DNA of 64,000 nt from Marinicella sp. (lineage in GTDB: Bacteria; Pseudomonadota; Gammaproteobacteria; Xanthomonadales; Marinicellaceae): contig OZ246001.1 of assembly GCA_965230295.1 (NCBI GenBank), positions 2,432,001 to 2,496,000 of the forward strand, written 5' to 3'. Made by a program: the position numbers and the translations under genes. Under the pieces are notes generated by a model. The model did not search any database. It was not told the DNA's origin and saw only the letters and a list, made by a program, of their open reading frames with translations. Each line of letters opens with the position of its first letter. The first letter of the stretch is position 1. Positions 17,290 through 56,426 of the stretch are shown in pieces.

Positions 17290-17314
17290 TGTATTGGTGA
17301 CCTGATATAAAAAT

Positions 17315-17664
17315 GTTGAGTTGGTCTATAAGCCGGGTTCTGTTCGTTTTCACGTGGCAATCATTCATCTGGGTCTGACATTGCTGCCAGCCTCAAGCAA
17401 TCTACCCGGAAACAGTGCGGGCACACACCTATAGTTTCCCTATTTGATCTTGCTCCAGGTGGGGTTTACCATGCCGCCTTTGTTACCAAAGTCGCGGTGC
17501 GCTCTTACCGCACCATTTCACCCTTACCTTAAAATATTAAGGCGGTATATTTTCTGCTGCACTGGCCGTAGGCTTGCGCCTCCCGGACGTTATCCGGCAC
17601 CTTGCCCTGTGGAGCCCGGACTTTCCTCGGTGTGATATCACAACGCGATTGCCCGACCAACTCA
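17315..17664 (-). ncRNA. rnpB: RNase P RNA (type A)
   Basis: Minus strand reads GAGTTGGTCGGGCAATCGC...GAGGAAAGTCCGGGCTCC...GGTAAACCCCACCTGGAGCAAG...AGAACCCGGCTTATAGACCAACTC. Confidence 0.97.
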
Positions 17665-38921: not shown

Positions 38922-38997
38922 GCCCGGTTAGCTCAGTCGGTAGAGCAGGGGATTGAAAATCCCCGTGTCCGTGGTTCGATTCCGCGACCGGGCACCA
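38922..38997 (+). tRNA. tRNA-Phe(GAA)
   Basis: GCCCGGT acceptor, D arm, GGGGA-TTGAAAA-TCCCC anticodon arm, GGTTCGATTCC, encoded CCA; 76 nt. Confidence 0.98.
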
Positions 38998-43538: not shown

Positions 43539-43889
43539 TTCACGGGGTTCAAAAGCAGTGTTCACCCTGATGAAACAAAGGACATGATAAAGTGTCATGG
43601 TAGAACTGTCGAACAGTTCGACCAGTGTAGGTAATGAGAGCGTGGTGGTTTACCTTATAGGTTATTAACCATACTTGAATACCGCAGTGCTTGCACTTGG
43701 TTAGGCATGCTATTAAGTAATTGCAGTTTTGCAGAGCAAAGAAGCTATTCCGTAATGGCCGATCAGTCGAGAAGTCTCGCTGAGTCAGAGAGTGCAAGTC
43801 CGTAGTAATAAGCGATGTCCGCCGTGGCCGCTTTCACTTTTGTAGAAAACAAAAGTGAATGAAGTCCCAAGGACATTCCTTACTTGTGA
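43539..43889 (+). ncRNA. Putative large structured ncRNA, copy B (modular, family unidentified)
   Basis: TATAAT at 43531-36; long-range pairs GGACAT/ATGTCC and TTGCACT/AGTGCAA; several hairpins; end-to-end homology with 55709-56387 (-), including compensatory changes. Folded by eye. Confidence 0.7.
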
Positions 43890-43911
43890 TCATATTTTAT
43901 GGGAGGACACA

Positions 43912-45456
43912 GTGAGCAAACCCGTCATTGCCAGCAACCAACCAATCAAGGTTGAGTTGACCCAAGGCCAGGAATATCATTTTTGTGCTTGTGGGCGCTC
44001 TGCCAATCAACCATTTTGTGACGGTTCTCATGTGGGAACTGACTTCAAACCCAAAGGATTCGTAGCTGAAGAAAACAATGAAGCCTATTTATGCCAGTGT
44101 AAACATACACAAAATGCCCCTTTCTGTGATGGCAGCCACAAGCAATTCCCGGTTGACATGATTGGGAAAGAAGGGCCAGGTGTCAGCACCAATCAGTCAG
44201 AAGCACCAGTGGCCAAAGCAACACAAGAAGAACCCACGGTAGAATTCATCCATCAGCTGGCCAGAGAAGGGCTGTCAAAGTTGGGGCACCATGGACCGAT
44301 GACTTCCATGGGTGTGCCTCGCAACGAGCTGCCCCACTGGGATGACCTGCAAGTGATGGTGGCTCAAATGGCGACCAAACCACTGATGGAAGATGTGGAG
44401 GTTGATACTCAGTTGGTGATAGGGCCAGAAGCCAAAAAGCCATTGGTGTTAAAAATACCCTTGTTTGTATCAGACATGAGTTTTGGTGCATTGTCTGAGG
44501 AGGCGAAAATAGCTCTGGCCAAAGGAGCTGAGTTGGCCGGTACTGGAATTTGTTCAGGAGAAGGCGGTATGCTACCTGAAGAGCAAGACGCCAACAGCCG
44601 TTATTTTTATGAACTTGCCAGTGCAGAGTTTGGTTATAAAGAGTCTTTGATTCAGAGGGTACAAGCCTTTCATTTCAAAGGAGGTCAAGGTGCAAAAACA
44701 GGTACAGGTGGACATTTACCAGGCAACAAAAATACCGGAAAAATCTCTCAAGTCAGGGGTATACCAGAAGGCACAGCAGCGATTTCTCCACCCACTTTTA
44801 AGCATTTGTCTTCTGTGAAGGATTTTAGAAATTTCGCTGAGAGGGTCAGGGAGCTGAGTGGCGGTATTCCCATCGGTTTCAAATTAAGTGCCAACCACAT
44901 CGAGCAGGACATCCAGTTTGCTTTGGATGCTTCTGCAGACTACATCATTTTGGATGGGCGAGGAGGTGGCACCGGGGCTGCCCCTGCCATGTTTCGTGAT
45001 CACATCAGTGTGCCGACCATTCCAGCTTTGGCCAGGGCCCGCACCTGTTTAGATCAGGCCGGTGCCAGTGGGCGAGTCACTTTGATCATTACGGGTGGAT
45101 TGCGGGTGCCAATGGATTTTGTCAAAGCCATGGCCTTGGGTGCAGATGGTGTGGCCATTTCAAACAGTGCGATGCAATCCATTGGTTGTGTGGCTGCCAG
45201 GATGTGCAACACCAACAACTGCCCGGCAGGTATAGCCACGCAAAAAGCCGATCTCAGACAACGGTTGAATGTTGATCAATCATCGATACAGCTGAGAAAT
45301 TTCTTTAACGCATCGGTCGAACTGATGGCAGTCATGGCCAGAGCTTGTGGCCACCAATCGTTCAATCAATTCAATATCAATGATTTGGCCACGTGGCATC
45401 GGGACATGGCGATGTTGTCAGGTGTCAAATATTCCGGTGTGAGGGACTTGCCATGA
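43912..45456 (+). CDS. CDGSH Fe-S domain / FMN-binding glutamate synthase-like protein
   Basis: GGAGG RBS before GTG 43912; two CxC...PFCDGSH motifs; MSFGALS, GEGG, GQGAK.G.GGHLP, C.AARMCNTNNCPAGIATQ. Confidence 0.9.
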   Translation: MSKPVIASNQPIKVELTQGQEYHFCACGRSANQPFCDGSHVGTDFKPKGFVAEENNEAYLCQCKHTQNAPFCDGSHKQFPVDMIGKEGPGVSTNQSEAPVAKATQEEPTVEFIHQLAREGLSKLGHHGPMTSMGVPRNELPHWDDLQVMVAQMATKPLMEDVEVDTQLVIGPEAKKPLVLKIPLFVSDMSFGALSEEAKIALAKGAELAGTGICSGEGGMLPEEQDANSRYFYELASAEFGYKESLIQRVQAFHFKGGQGAKTGTGGHLPGNKNTGKISQVRGIPEGTAAISPPTFKHLSSVKDFRNFAERVRELSGGIPIGFKLSANHIEQDIQFALDASADYIILDGRGGGTGAAPAMFRDHISVPTIPALARARTCLDQAGASGRVTLIITGGLRVPMDFVKAMALGADGVAISNSAMQSIGCVAARMCNTNNCPAGIATQKADLRQRLNVDQSSIQLRNFFNASVELMAVMARACGHQSFNQFNINDLATWHRDMAMLSGVKYSGVRDLP

Positions 45457-54892: not shown

Positions 54893-55075
54893 CTGATTCG
54901 GATCAGTCATTCATTTTAGGTTCATATTACTGGGTTATTATTGATTGGTTCAATAAGGCGCTTTTACTGAATGTTGAGGGTCATTGAGTGAAGCCAATAA
55001 CAATAAGTGGCATGACTGCCAGTTGTGTAGAGTGACTAGACGACACATCAGTGGTGCCAAACTGTGGAGAATGTC

Positions 55076-55714
55076 ATGAATAAATTTATTGTACTCATTG
55101 TTTTACTCTGTTTTCTTTCAGTCGGATCTGCAAAAAAATTGGGTTTAAAATTCGATATCCATGGAAACTTGGTTGGGCCGGATGATTATTTGGTTCACAA
55201 AGCTTTGATCGATGATGAAGAAGGTTATAAAAATGATGCCATGTGGCGCTTCAAGGAAGCAGCAGAGTATGGCAATAAACATGGGCAATATTATGCTGGC
55301 TTGTTGTATTTACAAAAAGATGATTACATCAATGGCTATGCCTGGTTGAAATTAGCCGGTGATCAATTCATGAACAATGCCAATTTGTTACCTGGTGTTA
55401 CCCAGGAACTCAAGAAACGGCAGCAACTGGCCCAAGCTGATGAGGCACTGAATGACTTAAAGCAAGAAATCAATTTTGAATCCACCATTGCCAAAAGAAT
55501 TAACTGGTTTAAAAGGATCAAGTTTGGTGGCTCAAACATCGGTGGTCACATCCCTCTCTTTTGGGAAACCCGATTGTATGATGGATTTTCTTTCAATGGA
55601 CCCAGAATCAGGGGTTGGCAACTGCGGAAAGAAATCAATACTTTTTTGTTTGAATACCGCTACCAAAAAGGTGATGTCAGGTTGAAAGAAATAAAATTGG
55701 CAGAGAACATGTAA
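55076..55714 (+). CDS. Secreted Sel1-like repeat protein
   Basis: GGAG RBS, signal peptide, FKEAAEYGNKHGQYYAGLLY...GYAWLKLA. Confidence 0.75.
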   Translation: MNKFIVLIVLLCFLSVGSAKKLGLKFDIHGNLVGPDDYLVHKALIDDEEGYKNDAMWRFKEAAEYGNKHGQYYAGLLYLQKDDYINGYAWLKLAGDQFMNNANLLPGVTQELKKRQQLAQADEALNDLKQEINFESTIAKRINWFKRIKFGGSNIGGHIPLFWETRLYDGFSFNGPRIRGWQLRKEINTFLFEYRYQKGDVRLKEIKLAENM

Positions 55715-55860
55715 ATAAAAGGAATGTTCTTGGGGCTTCATTCTGGGAAATGGTCTGACAGGTCTTCATATTTGCTGCGCAAATAAACCGGCCTTTACAG
55801 ACTATTGTCTGAGCAGTTGCTTCGCACTGCATGTCTGTTCCTGACAAAAGTGAAAGCGAC

Positions 55861-55958
55861 TACTTACATGGATGTAAGTATGCAGCGATAGCAGGCAGGA
55901 ATTGTTCCCAACAATTCTCTGCATTCACCCCGTCCTGGGGATCGATGCGGTAGCTGCC
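55861..55958 (+). repeat. GGA-hairpin insert 1 inside copy C
   Basis: TACTTACA-TGGA-TGTAAGTA followed by TGCAGCGATAGC; absent from copy B. Confidence 0.6.
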
Positions 55959-56131
55959 GAGGCGAACATGACTTGCTACCTCGCACGCACTGCGGCATTC
56001 AAATCGGGCTTCTTTATCTTCGATAAAACCGCCCAACTTTCATTGCCTGTGCTATAACGCCATTCACATAAGGCTTCTTGACTGCGTCAAATCGCCATAT
56101 GCTCATTGGCTATTCTCTTCGCCTCTGATTG

Positions 56132-56237
56132 GCTTACATGGAAGTAAGTCCTCTGAGGAGGCAGGATGCCGGTATCAGAGGTGACTACATGGATGTAGGT
56201 CTGCCGCGATAGCGGCCGCAACATCAAAAGCTCACGG
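56132..56237 (+). repeat. GGA-hairpin insert 2 inside copy C
   Basis: GCTTAC-ATGGAA-GTAAGT, GGCA-GGA-TGCC, GACTACA-TGGA-TGTAGGTC then TGCCGCGATAGC; replaces a short hairpin loop of copy B. Confidence 0.6.
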
Positions 56238-56426
56238 CTAATCAATCATTACATCAAGGCTTCTTTGCTTTGCAAAATCGCCATGATTGCATGATTTGCC
56301 TAACCGGCTCGGCGGGTCAAGCTGCTCAGCAGCTTTCCAATGTCCTTGGGCATTCAACCGCCTGAAAAACCCTTGAGTCGTGACATCAGGAAGGCTAAAC
56401 TGATTGTTTTTTTTGGAAGCAATAAC

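What the first reader, a model, noticed from the sequence alone, without database searches (positions are those of the whole stretch)
55753..56296. A repeated, covarying RNA module (AUGA/GAA loop, 9-bp helix, RRUU/AGAA loop, hairpin); six instances including variants
Seen in sequence, read in RNA sense. M3 (55987-56052 -): GGCA ATGA AAGTTGGGC GGTT TTATC gaa GATAA AGAA GCCCGATTT GAA TGCC. M2 (56054-56114 -): GCCA ATGA GCATATGGC GATT TGAC gca GTCA AGAA GCCTTATGT GAA TGGC. MB1 (43625-43690 +): GGTA ATGA GAGCGTGGT GGTT TACC ttata GGTT ATTA ACCATACTT GAA TACC. The helix sequences differ widely, yet the central helix stays 9 bp with at most one mismatch and the loops are largely kept (MB1 has ATTA in place of AGAA). 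A second variant (M1 56244-56296 -, MB2 43709-43759 +) keeps the RRUU/AGAA loop with a TTGC/GCAA tip, and M4 (55753-55802 -) has GGTT/TGAA. The G-U pairs fix the strand. Inference: each module is a docking unit with two asymmetric loops at fixed spacing, serving as a protein-binding site or an RNA-RNA tertiary contact, which would make the RNA a multivalent scaffold or sponge. The 4x4 loop resembles hairpin-ribozyme loop A (NGUC/AGAA), but the essential G is missing in two modules.
Basis: partly seen in the sequence, partly recalled or inferred. Interest (0 to 1): 0.85.

Follow-up and report, generated by a model that had tools for sequence, protein, structure and literature searches.

The report
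Structured modular repeat of Marinicella genomes
The flagged hairpin modules are real and keep their base pairing, but they belong to a short, many-copy, probably mobile non-coding element found almost only in the genus Marinicella, whose way of spreading is unknown.

Summary
M3, M2 and MB1 are full copies of a 67-nt hairpin with three conserved internal loops (A/GUN, AUGA/GAA, GRUU/AGAA). M1 is a clear variant. MB2 and M4 share only the inner loop theme. Pairing covaries: 90-91% of cells are paired against 25-45% in slid controls.

The stretch is not one scaffold RNA gene. Window 55719-56338 (-) is one 620-nt copy of a dispersed element with fixed 5' and 3' ends. The genome holds at least 80 copies, about 0.9% of its bases. 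A ~149-nt core carries optional hairpin modules at four sites. The core fold also covaries across species.

The module model hits 124 places in this genome and 22 of 23 other Marinicella genomes. It hits 0 of 150 sampled genomes of other families of the class.

I found no terminal inverted repeats, no target duplication and no preferred orientation to genes. No reverse transcriptase, TnpB, IS110 or multi-copy protein gene is present. One public run holds an allele lacking exactly these 620 nt.

Best reading: a new non-autonomous structured repeat whose single-strand fold is under selection. RNA versus ssDNA, and the mobilising factor, stay open.

The parts
55719..56338 (-). Full 620-nt copy of the dispersed element (A subfamily), the unit the finding lies in
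   Evidence: BLAST of a wider stretch against the genome: similarity to other copies starts at 56338 and stops at 55719. Flanks of 11 copies are unrelated. A contig of run X1 joins 55718 to 56339.
56319..56335 (-). P1, the 5' hairpin of the element (7-bp stem, 3-nt loop), followed by GACC
   Evidence: Alignments A2 and A5. The helix is 91.2% paired and 3 of 7 pairs covary between subfamilies.
56236..56301 (-). M1, a divergent module that keeps GAUU/AGAA but not AUGA/GAA
   Evidence: Model R1, 31.0 bits, E 1.9e-8.
56054..56116 (-). M2, canonical module (type a); its outer helix is shortened where it abuts M3
   Evidence: Model R1, 66.1 bits; alignment A3.
55987..56053 (-). M3, canonical module (type b)
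   Evidence: Model R1, 83.7 bits; alignment A3.
55753..55802 (-). M4, a helix-GGUU-7-bp hairpin-UGAA-helix inside the insertion that replaces the tip of the core's P5 hairpin
   Evidence: Read from sequence. Not recognised by R1 (2.2 bits, E 7.5). The insertion relative to the core is seen.
55719..55745 (-). Conserved 3' terminal motif (CAGAAUGAAGCCCCAAGAACAUUCCUU); GAACAU pairs with an upstream AUGUUC in the core fold (P4)
   Evidence: 83 such ends in the genome. The P4 helix covaries UA to CG within the genome and further across species.
56339..56355 (-). Solo copy of the 3'-end motif (GAAUGCCCAAGGACAUU) directly 5' of the element; with the next bases it forms the 'empty' allele
   Evidence: Sequence. 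The X1 contig reads 55718-GG-56339, so on the minus strand ...ACATT-CC-TTATT.
43599..43881 (+). Second element in the window (B subfamily, 283 nt), ending 30 nt before a likely GTG start at 43912
   Evidence: Sequence. BLAST to other B copies. Core model R2 hits window 43741-43881 with 103.9 bits (G000:C1:2475741-2475881).
43624..43690 (+). MB1, canonical module (type d, AUUA in place of AGAA)
   Evidence: Model R1, 66.7 bits.
43709..43759 (+). MB2, a loose relative; only the inner AGUU-hairpin-AGAA part fits the model
   Evidence: Model R1 local match 43719-43749, 11 bits, E 0.011.

Best explanation
The finding lies inside one copy of a non-coding, many-copy, modular element that is almost confined to the genus Marinicella. 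Genome records that share the 3' motif carry that genus name.

Its basic unit is a ~149-nt core with fixed ends (5' GGA[A/G]A..., 3' ...CAUUCCUU). As a single strand the core folds into three parts. The first is a 5' hairpin (P1). The second is an arm in which a helix encloses GGUU, a hairpin with tandem G-A mismatches, and AGA (P2-P3). The third is a 3' domain closed by a long-range helix (AUGUYC with GRACAU) around a conserved hairpin.

Longer copies, such as this 620-nt one, are the core plus self-contained hairpin modules added at four fixed places. It looks like an enlarged duplicate of the core's own P2-P3 arm.

Shown: the copy number, the fixed ends, the discrete size classes, the covariation of module and core within and between species, the strand, an allele without the element, and the lack of any known mobilising gene.

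Inferred: the element is, or recently was, mobile and non-autonomous. Its folded single strand is what is selected, because an unidentified factor recognises the fold when the element is copied or moved. I put RNA at about 0.55, ssDNA at about 0.3, and about 0.15 on neither or something else. Extra modules would be extra recognition arms that fold on their own, which would explain why they can be gained or lost without harming the core.
For: Dispersed copies: the 621-nt query gives 75 matches in the genome, 10 of them over nearly its whole length at 86-95% identity. Boundaries are 56338 and 55719.

Shared ends and size classes: there are 83 3' ends and 43 A-type 5' ends. Size classes are 146 (8 copies), 233 (5), 630 (5) and others. 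The alignment shows the core plus insertions at four sites. About 70 of 80 elements keep an intact 5' end.

Genome load: 80 elements carrying the 3' motif total 25,223 nt, and 51 further related intervals total 9,599 nt.

Module: seed and cross-species covariation; 124 hits at E<=0.01 in this genome. It hits 22 of 23 other Marinicella genomes with 1-81 copies each, 0 of 13 genomes of other genera of the family, and 2 of 24 genomes of other families of the order. It hits 0 of 150 class-wide genomes.

Core: 95.4% of cells paired, 14 of 39 pairs covary, slid controls 33-44%. It is found in 21 of 23 other Marinicella genomes and in 16 copies in one outgroup genome. Across 18 full-length hits from other genomes 646 of 694 cells pair, and the long-range helix changes on both sides.

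Presence/absence: a contig of run X1 skips exactly 55719-56338, at depth 4 against about 9.7 for the flanks. The same run shows a second strain at depth 3.5 of 11.5. In four other species the same two genes are 125-146 nt apart with no element.

No known partner: no TnpB, RT or IS110 in this genome. No protein family has three or more copies except a spurious ORF inside the element. Across the genus, RT is in 4 of 24 genomes, Y1 in 16 of 24 and TnpB in 0 of 24 over the cut-off. G021, with 81 modules, lacks all three.

Strand: G-U 54 against A-C 13.
Against: No transcript data: no listed run is on record as RNA, so neither RNA nor ssDNA is shown.

Mobility is inferred from copy identity and from one presence/absence allele between two strains. 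That allele could equally be a deletion between the two direct copies of CCCAAGRACATT that flank the element.

No transposase, target motif, terminal repeat or duplication was found, so no mechanism of movement is shown.

The modules are optional: core-only copies are themselves multi-copy. The claim that they serve propagation is therefore inference.

The same loop vocabulary builds a syntenic unit next to polA in 12 of 18 Marinicella polA loci. That fits a host RNA function at least as well as a selfish one.

The alignments from model hits lean towards the model's structure.
Confidence: 0.72

Rival explanations
1. Host RNA motif. The three-loop hairpin and the GGUU/AGAA arm are binding sites for a Marinicella RNA-binding protein, or docking sites between RNAs. 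They act in transcripts, and the dispersed copies spread such sites into untranslated regions or form a family of small RNAs. This is the closest surviving form of the first reader's idea.
For: Unpaired letters stay conserved while the helices covary, and G-U pairs are tolerated on one strand.

A ~110-nt unit built from the same parts ends 0-5 nt from the polA stop codon in 12 of 18 Marinicella polA loci. Its helices change on both sides between species (for example UGC/GCA to UGU/ACA and UCC/GGA), and it occurs in 1-3 tandem copies.
Against: Orientation to genes is even and no upstream sequence is conserved. The only promoter-like site in sense inside the element scores 9 of 12, and the region holds 2 such sites against 1.3 +/- 1.1 in shuffles. 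With 80-130 copies per genome and copy numbers from 0 to 81 among species, this does not look like a fixed regulon. G003 (98% complete) has neither module nor core.
Confidence: 0.2
2. Single-stranded-DNA transposon ends. The hairpins are recognised as folded ssDNA by a tyrosine HUH enzyme, as in IS200/IS605 derivatives or REP sequences moved by a RAYT.
For: There are no terminal inverted repeats and no target duplication, and there are hairpins near both ends. By my count from the table (origin near 1.72 Mb, terminus near 3.86 Mb), 56 of 80 elements have their sense strand on the lagging-strand sequence. One Y1 transposase gene is present.
Against: That Y1 gene is flanked by a different short palindrome (GGAGCG-5 nt-TTCA-5 nt-CGTT type; 49 pattern hits, roughly 30 of them true by eye in the 40 listed). 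Only 4 of 159 element-related intervals (both strands, overlaps included) lie within 100 nt of one. Y1 was not found in G019 and G021 (62 and 81 modules) and is present in G003 (0 modules). TnpB is absent. The two end hairpins are unlike each other, and no conserved bases precede the 5' end. The favoured strand is the leading-strand template, not the lagging-strand template used by IS608 (the latter is recalled, not from a call).
Confidence: 0.12
3. RNA-copied retroelement (SINE-like). A folded transcript is reverse-transcribed and inserted.
For: The fold is complex and RNA-like, with a long-range closing helix, and many copies share a conserved 3' end.
Against: RT is in 4 of 24 genomes of the genus and in none of the three with the most copies (G000, G019, G021). 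About 70 of 80 copies keep the full 5' end, so 5' truncation is rare. There is no A-rich tail and no target duplication.
Confidence: 0.05
4. Self-cleaving ribozyme of the hairpin type, or another known ribozyme or RNA family.
Against: No ribozyme family or other relevant Rfam family matches at E up to 10 on either window copy or at gathering score over the whole window. The opposite strand is GGUU or GAUU. No loop-B-like partner lies on an adjacent helix. The module is a single unbranched hairpin.
Confidence: 0.02

Closest known systems
BOX elements of Streptococcus pneumoniae (boxA-boxB(n)-boxC composite repeats)
   Same: BOX elements are non-coding, many-copy and limited to one species group. 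They have fixed end modules and a variable number of internal modules that fold independently, and range from 67 to 637 bp (PMC3049150: abstract and passages read). Here the elements range from 149 to about 635 nt, with fixed ends and optional internal hairpins.
   Different: BOX elements have terminal inverted repeats, cause target duplications and resemble the ends of ISSpn2 (same paper). Here none of these was found, and the genome holds no multi-copy protein gene. The modules here sit at four different sites, come in at least six sequence types and keep three asymmetric loops through covariation. Sequence likeness to BOX was not tested.
REP sequences / REPINs moved by a single-copy RAYT (Y1 transposase)
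   Same: Short structured intergenic repeats depending on a host-encoded single-copy enzyme rather than on an insertion sequence (PMC3116915: search listing only; the rest is recalled). This genome has such a system.
   Different: The RAYT here has its own, different palindrome. The structured element is not linked to it, and it is abundant in genomes where no Y1 gene was found. The element is 149-635 nt with a multi-helix fold, not a 20-40-nt palindrome.
IS200/IS605-derived non-autonomous elements and their guide RNAs (omega RNA; HEARO RNA)
   Same: No inverted repeats and no duplication, structured ends, and many ORF-less structured copies in a genome. These are recalled features; the abstracts of 10.1101/2023.03.14.532601 and PMC10690162 were seen only in the listing.
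   Different: No TnpA/TnpB partner, no Rfam match including HEARO, and no conserved target bases next to the 5' end.
Tandem sheared G-A motifs / kink-turn (RNA 3D motifs)
   Same: AUGA opposite GAA can form G-A and A-G pairs next to a U-A pair. The core's P3 hairpin holds UGAG/CGAA or CGAA/UGAG. This is a reading of the letters, not a test.
   Different: A canonical kink-turn has a 3-nt bulge on one strand, and on the other strand the G-A directly abuts the helix (recalled definition). Here one strand has 1-2 extra bases and the other has 1.
Hairpin ribozyme loop A
   Same: AGAA on one strand of a 4x4 loop.
   Different: See the rival explanation: no model match, no GUC, no second domain.

Membership tests
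Classical MITE | Terminal inverted repeats | tested here: not met
   The ends are GGAAAG... and ...CATTCCTT. Only GGAA/TTCC (4-6 nt) is inverted-complementary.
Classical MITE | Target-site duplication | tested here: not met
   The flanks of 11 copies show no direct repeat.
Classical MITE | Partner insertion sequence with the same ends in the host | tested here: not met
   All-against-all comparison of 3066 ORF products: no family has three or more copies at 80% identity or more, except an ORF inside the element itself.
BOX-type composite repeat | Fixed end modules with a variable set of internal modules | tested here: met
   Size classes and the alignment of 18 representatives.
BOX-type composite repeat | Sequence homology to boxA/boxB/boxC | not tested
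REP/RAYT | The repeat flanks the RAYT gene and co-occurs with it | tested here: not met
   A different palindrome flanks the Y1 gene. Only 4 of 159 element-related intervals lie near such a palindrome. Y1 was not found in G019 or G021.
IS200/IS605 derivative | TnpA (Y1) and/or TnpB encoded in the genome with matching ends | tested here: not met
   TnpB: 0 hits in this genome and 0 of 24 over the cut-off in the genus. The single Y1 gene is unlinked.
IS200/IS605 derivative | Conserved short target next to the left end | tested here: not met
   The bases before GGAAAG vary.
IS110 family / bridge RNA | DEDD transposase present | tested here: not met
   PF01548: no hit in this genome; the control genomes rang. 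Not tested in the rest of the genus.
IS91 family | Y2 transposase present | tested here: inconclusive
   PF04986 gave no hit, but the control rang in none of 14 genomes.
SINE-like retroelement | Reverse transcriptase available; 5'-truncated copies | tested here: not met
   RT is in 4 of 24 genomes and not in G000, G019 or G021. About 70 of 80 copies have the full 5' end.
Hairpin ribozyme (RF00173) and other Rfam families | Match to the family's covariance model | tested here: not met
   No relevant match at gathering score or at E up to 10.
Kink-turn | 3-nt bulge followed by tandem sheared G-A, with the G-A of the other strand abutting the helix (recalled definition) | tested here: not met
   The loop is AUGA opposite GAA between two Watson-Crick helices in 13 of 13 seeds.
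Structured RNA under selection (general) | Covariation above controls in independent lineages | tested here: met
   Module. Core. Orthologous polA-side units read by eye.

The most novel reading that the evidence does not exclude
The 149-nt core and its three-loop hairpin arms may be a new class of structured mobile element. It would spread without any known transposase or reverse transcriptase. Its folded transcript (or single strand) would recruit an undiscovered, single-copy Marinicella protein, and the GGUU/AGAA and AUGA/GAA loops would be that protein's recognition code. This would resemble the way multi-copy HEARO RNAs looked before their nuclease partner was understood. The polA-side tandem unit would be the host-kept form of the same RNA-protein pair.
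Probability: 0.22. Interest if true: 0.85.

Novelty: new variant of a known kind. Interest (0 to 1): 0.62.

Why it matters
Small dispersed repeats are common in bacteria. Most are simple palindromes tied to a known transposase. This family is different in several ways. It makes up nearly 1% of a genome that has no insertion sequences. It has exact ends but no inverted repeats or duplications. It keeps an elaborate multi-helix fold and three asymmetric loops through compensatory change across at least 22 species. That pattern points to a recognition partner nobody has named.

If the partner is found, it could be a new way of moving DNA or a new RNA-binding protein with a defined, portable binding module.

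In practical terms, these elements break draft assemblies; many contigs of G021 end in the module. They also create false ORFs and false start codons, as with the 43855 start in this window.

Tried and rejected
**Cyanobacterial origin.** My first impression was a cyanobacterium. I rejected it: the HIP1 octamer occurs 25 times against about 58 expected, and related records are named Marinicella.

**Rfam.** Nothing relevant at gathering score or at E up to 10. The polA-side region also gave nothing.

**Expression.** No RNA holder was listed. The four runs laid were contigs of unknown kind with flat depth, so nothing can be said about transcripts.

**Viral contigs.** The 3' motif gave 0 hits. A loop-spacing pattern gave 3 hits, none of which fits model R1 at E up to 1; I take them as chance.

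**Empty site in other species.** The tpx spacers are too diverged to align at the insertion point.

**Shared flanks among best hits of different genomes.** Only 3 pairs of 51 loci share flanks. One of them led to polA.

**Tyrosine recombinases.** There are 8 hits in the genome and none is linked to the element; not informative.

**Promoter and terminator scan.** Counts are near the shuffle expectation.

**Literature.** Searches for Marinicella with repeat, Rfam, RNA motif, ncRNA or transposable terms and for structured non-autonomous repeats found no description of this family. Supplements were closed and were not seen. Most subscription journals are outside the library.

**Not attempted.** A model of the polA-side unit, a gene-presence profile against copy number, and a metagenome scan.
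Full report
**What is at the coordinates.** Rfam finds only RNase P RNA and one tRNA elsewhere in the window. It finds nothing relevant in either region, even at E up to 10.

**It is a dispersed repeat.** A 621-nt query covering the finding gives 75 matches in the window's own 4.0-Mb genome. Ten of them run over nearly the whole length at 86-95% identity. With wider flanks, similarity begins at window 56338 and ends at 55719. Eleven copies share the start GGAAAGCTGCTGAGCAGCTTGACC and the end ...GAATGAAGCCCCAAGAACATTCCTT. Their flanks are unrelated, with no direct repeat and no real inverted terminal repeat.

The genome has 83 such 3' ends and 43 A-type 5' ends. The distances between them fall into discrete classes: 146 (8 copies), 160, 210, 212, 233 (5), 297, 353, 417, 482, 533, 565, 576, 617 and 630 (5).

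Aligning one copy per class shows a ~149-nt core. The longer forms are the core plus blocks inserted at four fixed places. The second window copy (43599-43881, +) belongs to a diverged B subfamily.

Merged BLAST intervals give 80 elements with the 3' motif (25,223 nt) and 51 further related intervals (9,599 nt). Together that is about 0.9% of the genome. Records elsewhere that carry the 3' motif are named Marinicella or are unnamed relatives.

**The module.** A pattern search with pairing filters found 58 instances in six sequence types. When the 4x4 loop letters were left free, 58 of 60 hits still carried GRTT and A[GT][AT]A.

There is an outer 4-bp helix and a third conserved loop (A opposite G-U/C-N). 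The unit reads:

- A-G[NNN]-A-[GNNA]-AUGA-[9 bp]-GRUU-[4-5 bp and loop]-AGAA-[9 bp]-GAA-[UNNC]-GUN-[NNN]C

On this seed, 90.2% of cells pair and 17 of 22 pairs change on both sides. Slid controls give 25.6-45.4%, and no shuffle of 500 reaches the observed values. The outer helix was not part of any filter and still covaries.

The covariance model R1 finds:

- 124 places in this genome at E<=0.01
- 22 of 23 other genomes of the genus, with 1-81 copies each
- 0 of 13 genomes of other genera of the family
- 2 of 24 genomes of other families of the order
- 0 of 150 genomes sampled one per family across the class

Forty hits from 24 other genomes are 91.0% paired and 18 of 22 pairs covary, against 27.4-42.7% when slid. 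This alignment is fitted to the model.

In the window the model scores M3 83.7, M2 66.1, MB1 66.7 and M1 31.0 bits. MB2 matches only in part (11 bits) and M4 not at all (2.2 bits).

**The core.** RNAalifold on 15 core copies of three subfamilies predicts the following:

- a 5' hairpin
- a helix enclosing GGUU, a hairpin and AGA
- a 3' domain closed by AUGUYC pairing with GRACAU

With a hand-set structure, 95.4% of cells pair and 14 of 39 pairs covary, against 33-44% when slid.

Model R2 finds the core in 21 of 23 other Marinicella genomes. It gives two weak hits in the sister genus and 16 copies in one outgroup genome. In 18 full-length hits from other genomes, 646 of 694 cells pair. The long-range helix appears as GUGUUC/GAACAC, AUGAUC/GAUCAU, AUGCUG/CAGCAU and CCGUUC/GAACGG.

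The core's P2-P3 arm has the same plan as the module's inner part, so the module looks like an enlarged duplicate of that arm. That is inference.

**Signs of mobility.** Run X1 has flat depth near 9.7 across both flanking genes, so I read it as DNA. It holds a contig that joins 55718 to 56339 with two other letters between, at depth 4. The same run carries variant letters at depth 3.5 of 11.5 in the neighbouring gene, so it holds two related strains, one of which lacks the element.

On the element's strand the empty allele reads ...GAATGCCCAAGGACATT-CC-TTATT..., which is a solo copy of the 3' motif. Because the filled allele has that motif on both sides, insertion next to a pre-existing motif and deletion between the two copies cannot be told apart.

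In four other species the same two genes are neighbours, with 125-146 nt between them and no element.

About 70 of 80 elements keep the exact 5' end. Truncation from the 5' side is therefore rare.

**What could move it.** This genome has no TnpB, RVT_1 or IS110 transposase hit, and the controls rang. The IS91 test was uninformative.

An all-against-all comparison of 3066 ORF products found no family with three or more copies, apart from an ORF that lies inside the element. The genome therefore has no ordinary insertion sequences.

One Y1 transposase gene exists. It is flanked by its own short palindrome, which gives 49 pattern hits, roughly 30 of them true by eye. Only 4 of 159 element-related intervals lie within 100 nt of such a palindrome.

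Across 24 genomes of the genus:

- RT is in 4.
- Y1 is in 16.
- TnpB is in none over the cut-off.

G021 (99% complete, 81 modules) has none of the three. G003 (0 modules, 0 cores) has three Y1 hits.

**Context.**

- Of 80 elements, 20 lie between tandem genes in the genes' direction and 19 against it. A further 22 lie between divergent genes and 19 between convergent genes. This argues against a role that depends on co-transcription with a given neighbour.
- GC skew puts the origin near 1.72 Mb and the terminus near 3.86 Mb. By my count from that table, 56 of 80 elements have the sense strand on the lagging-strand sequence. This is a moderate bias and I cannot explain it.
- Ends that face a gene's stop codon lie within 10 nt of it in 17 of 77 cases. 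Ends that face a gene start do so in 5 of 83 cases. Selection against hitting promoters would be enough to explain this.

**The same vocabulary elsewhere.**

- Model R1 and a minimal GGUU-hairpin-AGAA pattern also hit other repeat types. One carries the module between different flanking hairpins.
- There are also tandem arrays of ~110-nt units at about 761.7-762.1, 1890.3-1890.6 and 2499.65-2500.0 kb.
- Flank comparison led to polA. On the strand convergent to polA, an 'X-Y' unit ends 0-5 nt from the polA stop codon in 12 of 18 Marinicella polA loci. It is absent from the four outgroup loci printed.
- Between species, the X-Y helices change on both sides. The Y tip carries insertions of 12 to 84 nt.
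- Rfam has no match there.
- This syntenic unit is the best hint that the vocabulary works as RNA. It keeps the host-function rival alive.

**Comparison with known kinds.** The nearest described thing is the pneumococcal BOX element. It is composite, modular, 67-637 bp, folded, limited to one species group and judged parasitic (PMC3049150: abstract and passages). BOX, however, has inverted repeats, duplications and an IS with like ends. The general review of small mobile sequences (PMC2229807: abstract only) lists no type like this one. REP/RAYT, IS200/IS605 derivatives, retro-copied elements, hairpin ribozyme and kink-turn each fail at least one defining feature that I tested (see the membership table).

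**Verdict.** This is a new family, and an unusual variant, of bacterial structured dispersed repeats. The folded strand (RNA or ssDNA) and the mobilising or binding factor are not known.

Noticed in passing
G000:C1:1810700-1810990 (-), outside the window; loci L158-L175: A ~110-nt 'X-Y' structured unit lies convergent to polA. It occurs in 1-3 tandem copies, and its last base lies 0-5 nt from the polA stop codon in 12 of 18 Marinicella polA loci. Its helices covary between species. There is no Rfam match. It is a candidate conserved ncRNA built from the same GGUU/AGAA and tandem G-A parts.
   Followed up: partly
G000:C1 about 761.7-762.13 kb (+), 1890.3-1890.6 kb (+), 2499.65-2500.0 kb (-), 2177.5 kb (-): Tandem arrays of two or three ~110-nt units of the same X-Y kind. 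Two arrays end at the stop codon of a convergent gene.
   Followed up: no
G000:C1:1669221-1669880: A single Y1 (RAYT-like) transposase gene is flanked by its own palindrome of the GGAGCG-5 nt-TTCA-5 nt-CGTT type. The pattern gives 49 hits, roughly 30 of them true by eye. It is a separate REP system, not linked to the structured element.
   Followed up: partly
whole genome G000: No protein family has three or more near-identical copies, so there are no ordinary insertion sequences, although about 0.9% of the genome is this non-coding repeat.
   Followed up: yes
whole genome G000: 56 of 80 elements have their sense strand on the lagging-strand sequence (origin near 1.72 Mb, terminus near 3.86 Mb). 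This is my count from the table. The bias is unexplained.
   Followed up: partly
window 55714-55719 and other copies: Element ends often sit within 10 nt of a neighbouring stop codon: 17 of 77 ends facing a stop, against 5 of 83 facing a start. Here the 3' end is 5 nt from the stop of the convergent gene at 55064-55714.
   Followed up: partly
window 43855-43912: The longest ORF of the glutamate-synthase-like gene starts at 43855, inside the B-type element. A GTG at 43912 preceded by GGGAGG is the likelier start.
   Followed up: no
window 55860-56036, 56087-56245 (-) and genome-wide: Spurious ORFs of 52-130 aa lie inside the element. One such ORF family is the only 'multi-copy protein' of the genome, with 8 copies.
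   Followed up: yes
G000:C1:3334366-3334786 (+): One copy carries about four tandem repeats of a ~28-nt piece just before its 3' motif.
   Followed up: no
L090 (G030) and L094, L149, L179 (G033): Two genomes of other families of the order carry relatives. G030 has 5 module hits inside a GC-rich repeat of its own. G033 has 3 weak module hits and 16 core hits, one of them downstream of polA. This could reflect horizontal spread or an older origin.
   Followed up: no
run X1 on window 55459-55570: Run X1 holds two related strains: 5 differences in 112 nt at depth 3.5 against 8.
   Followed up: no
window 17313-17664 (-) and 38922-38994 (+): RNase P RNA class A (347 bits) and one tRNA, both ordinary.
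   Followed up: no
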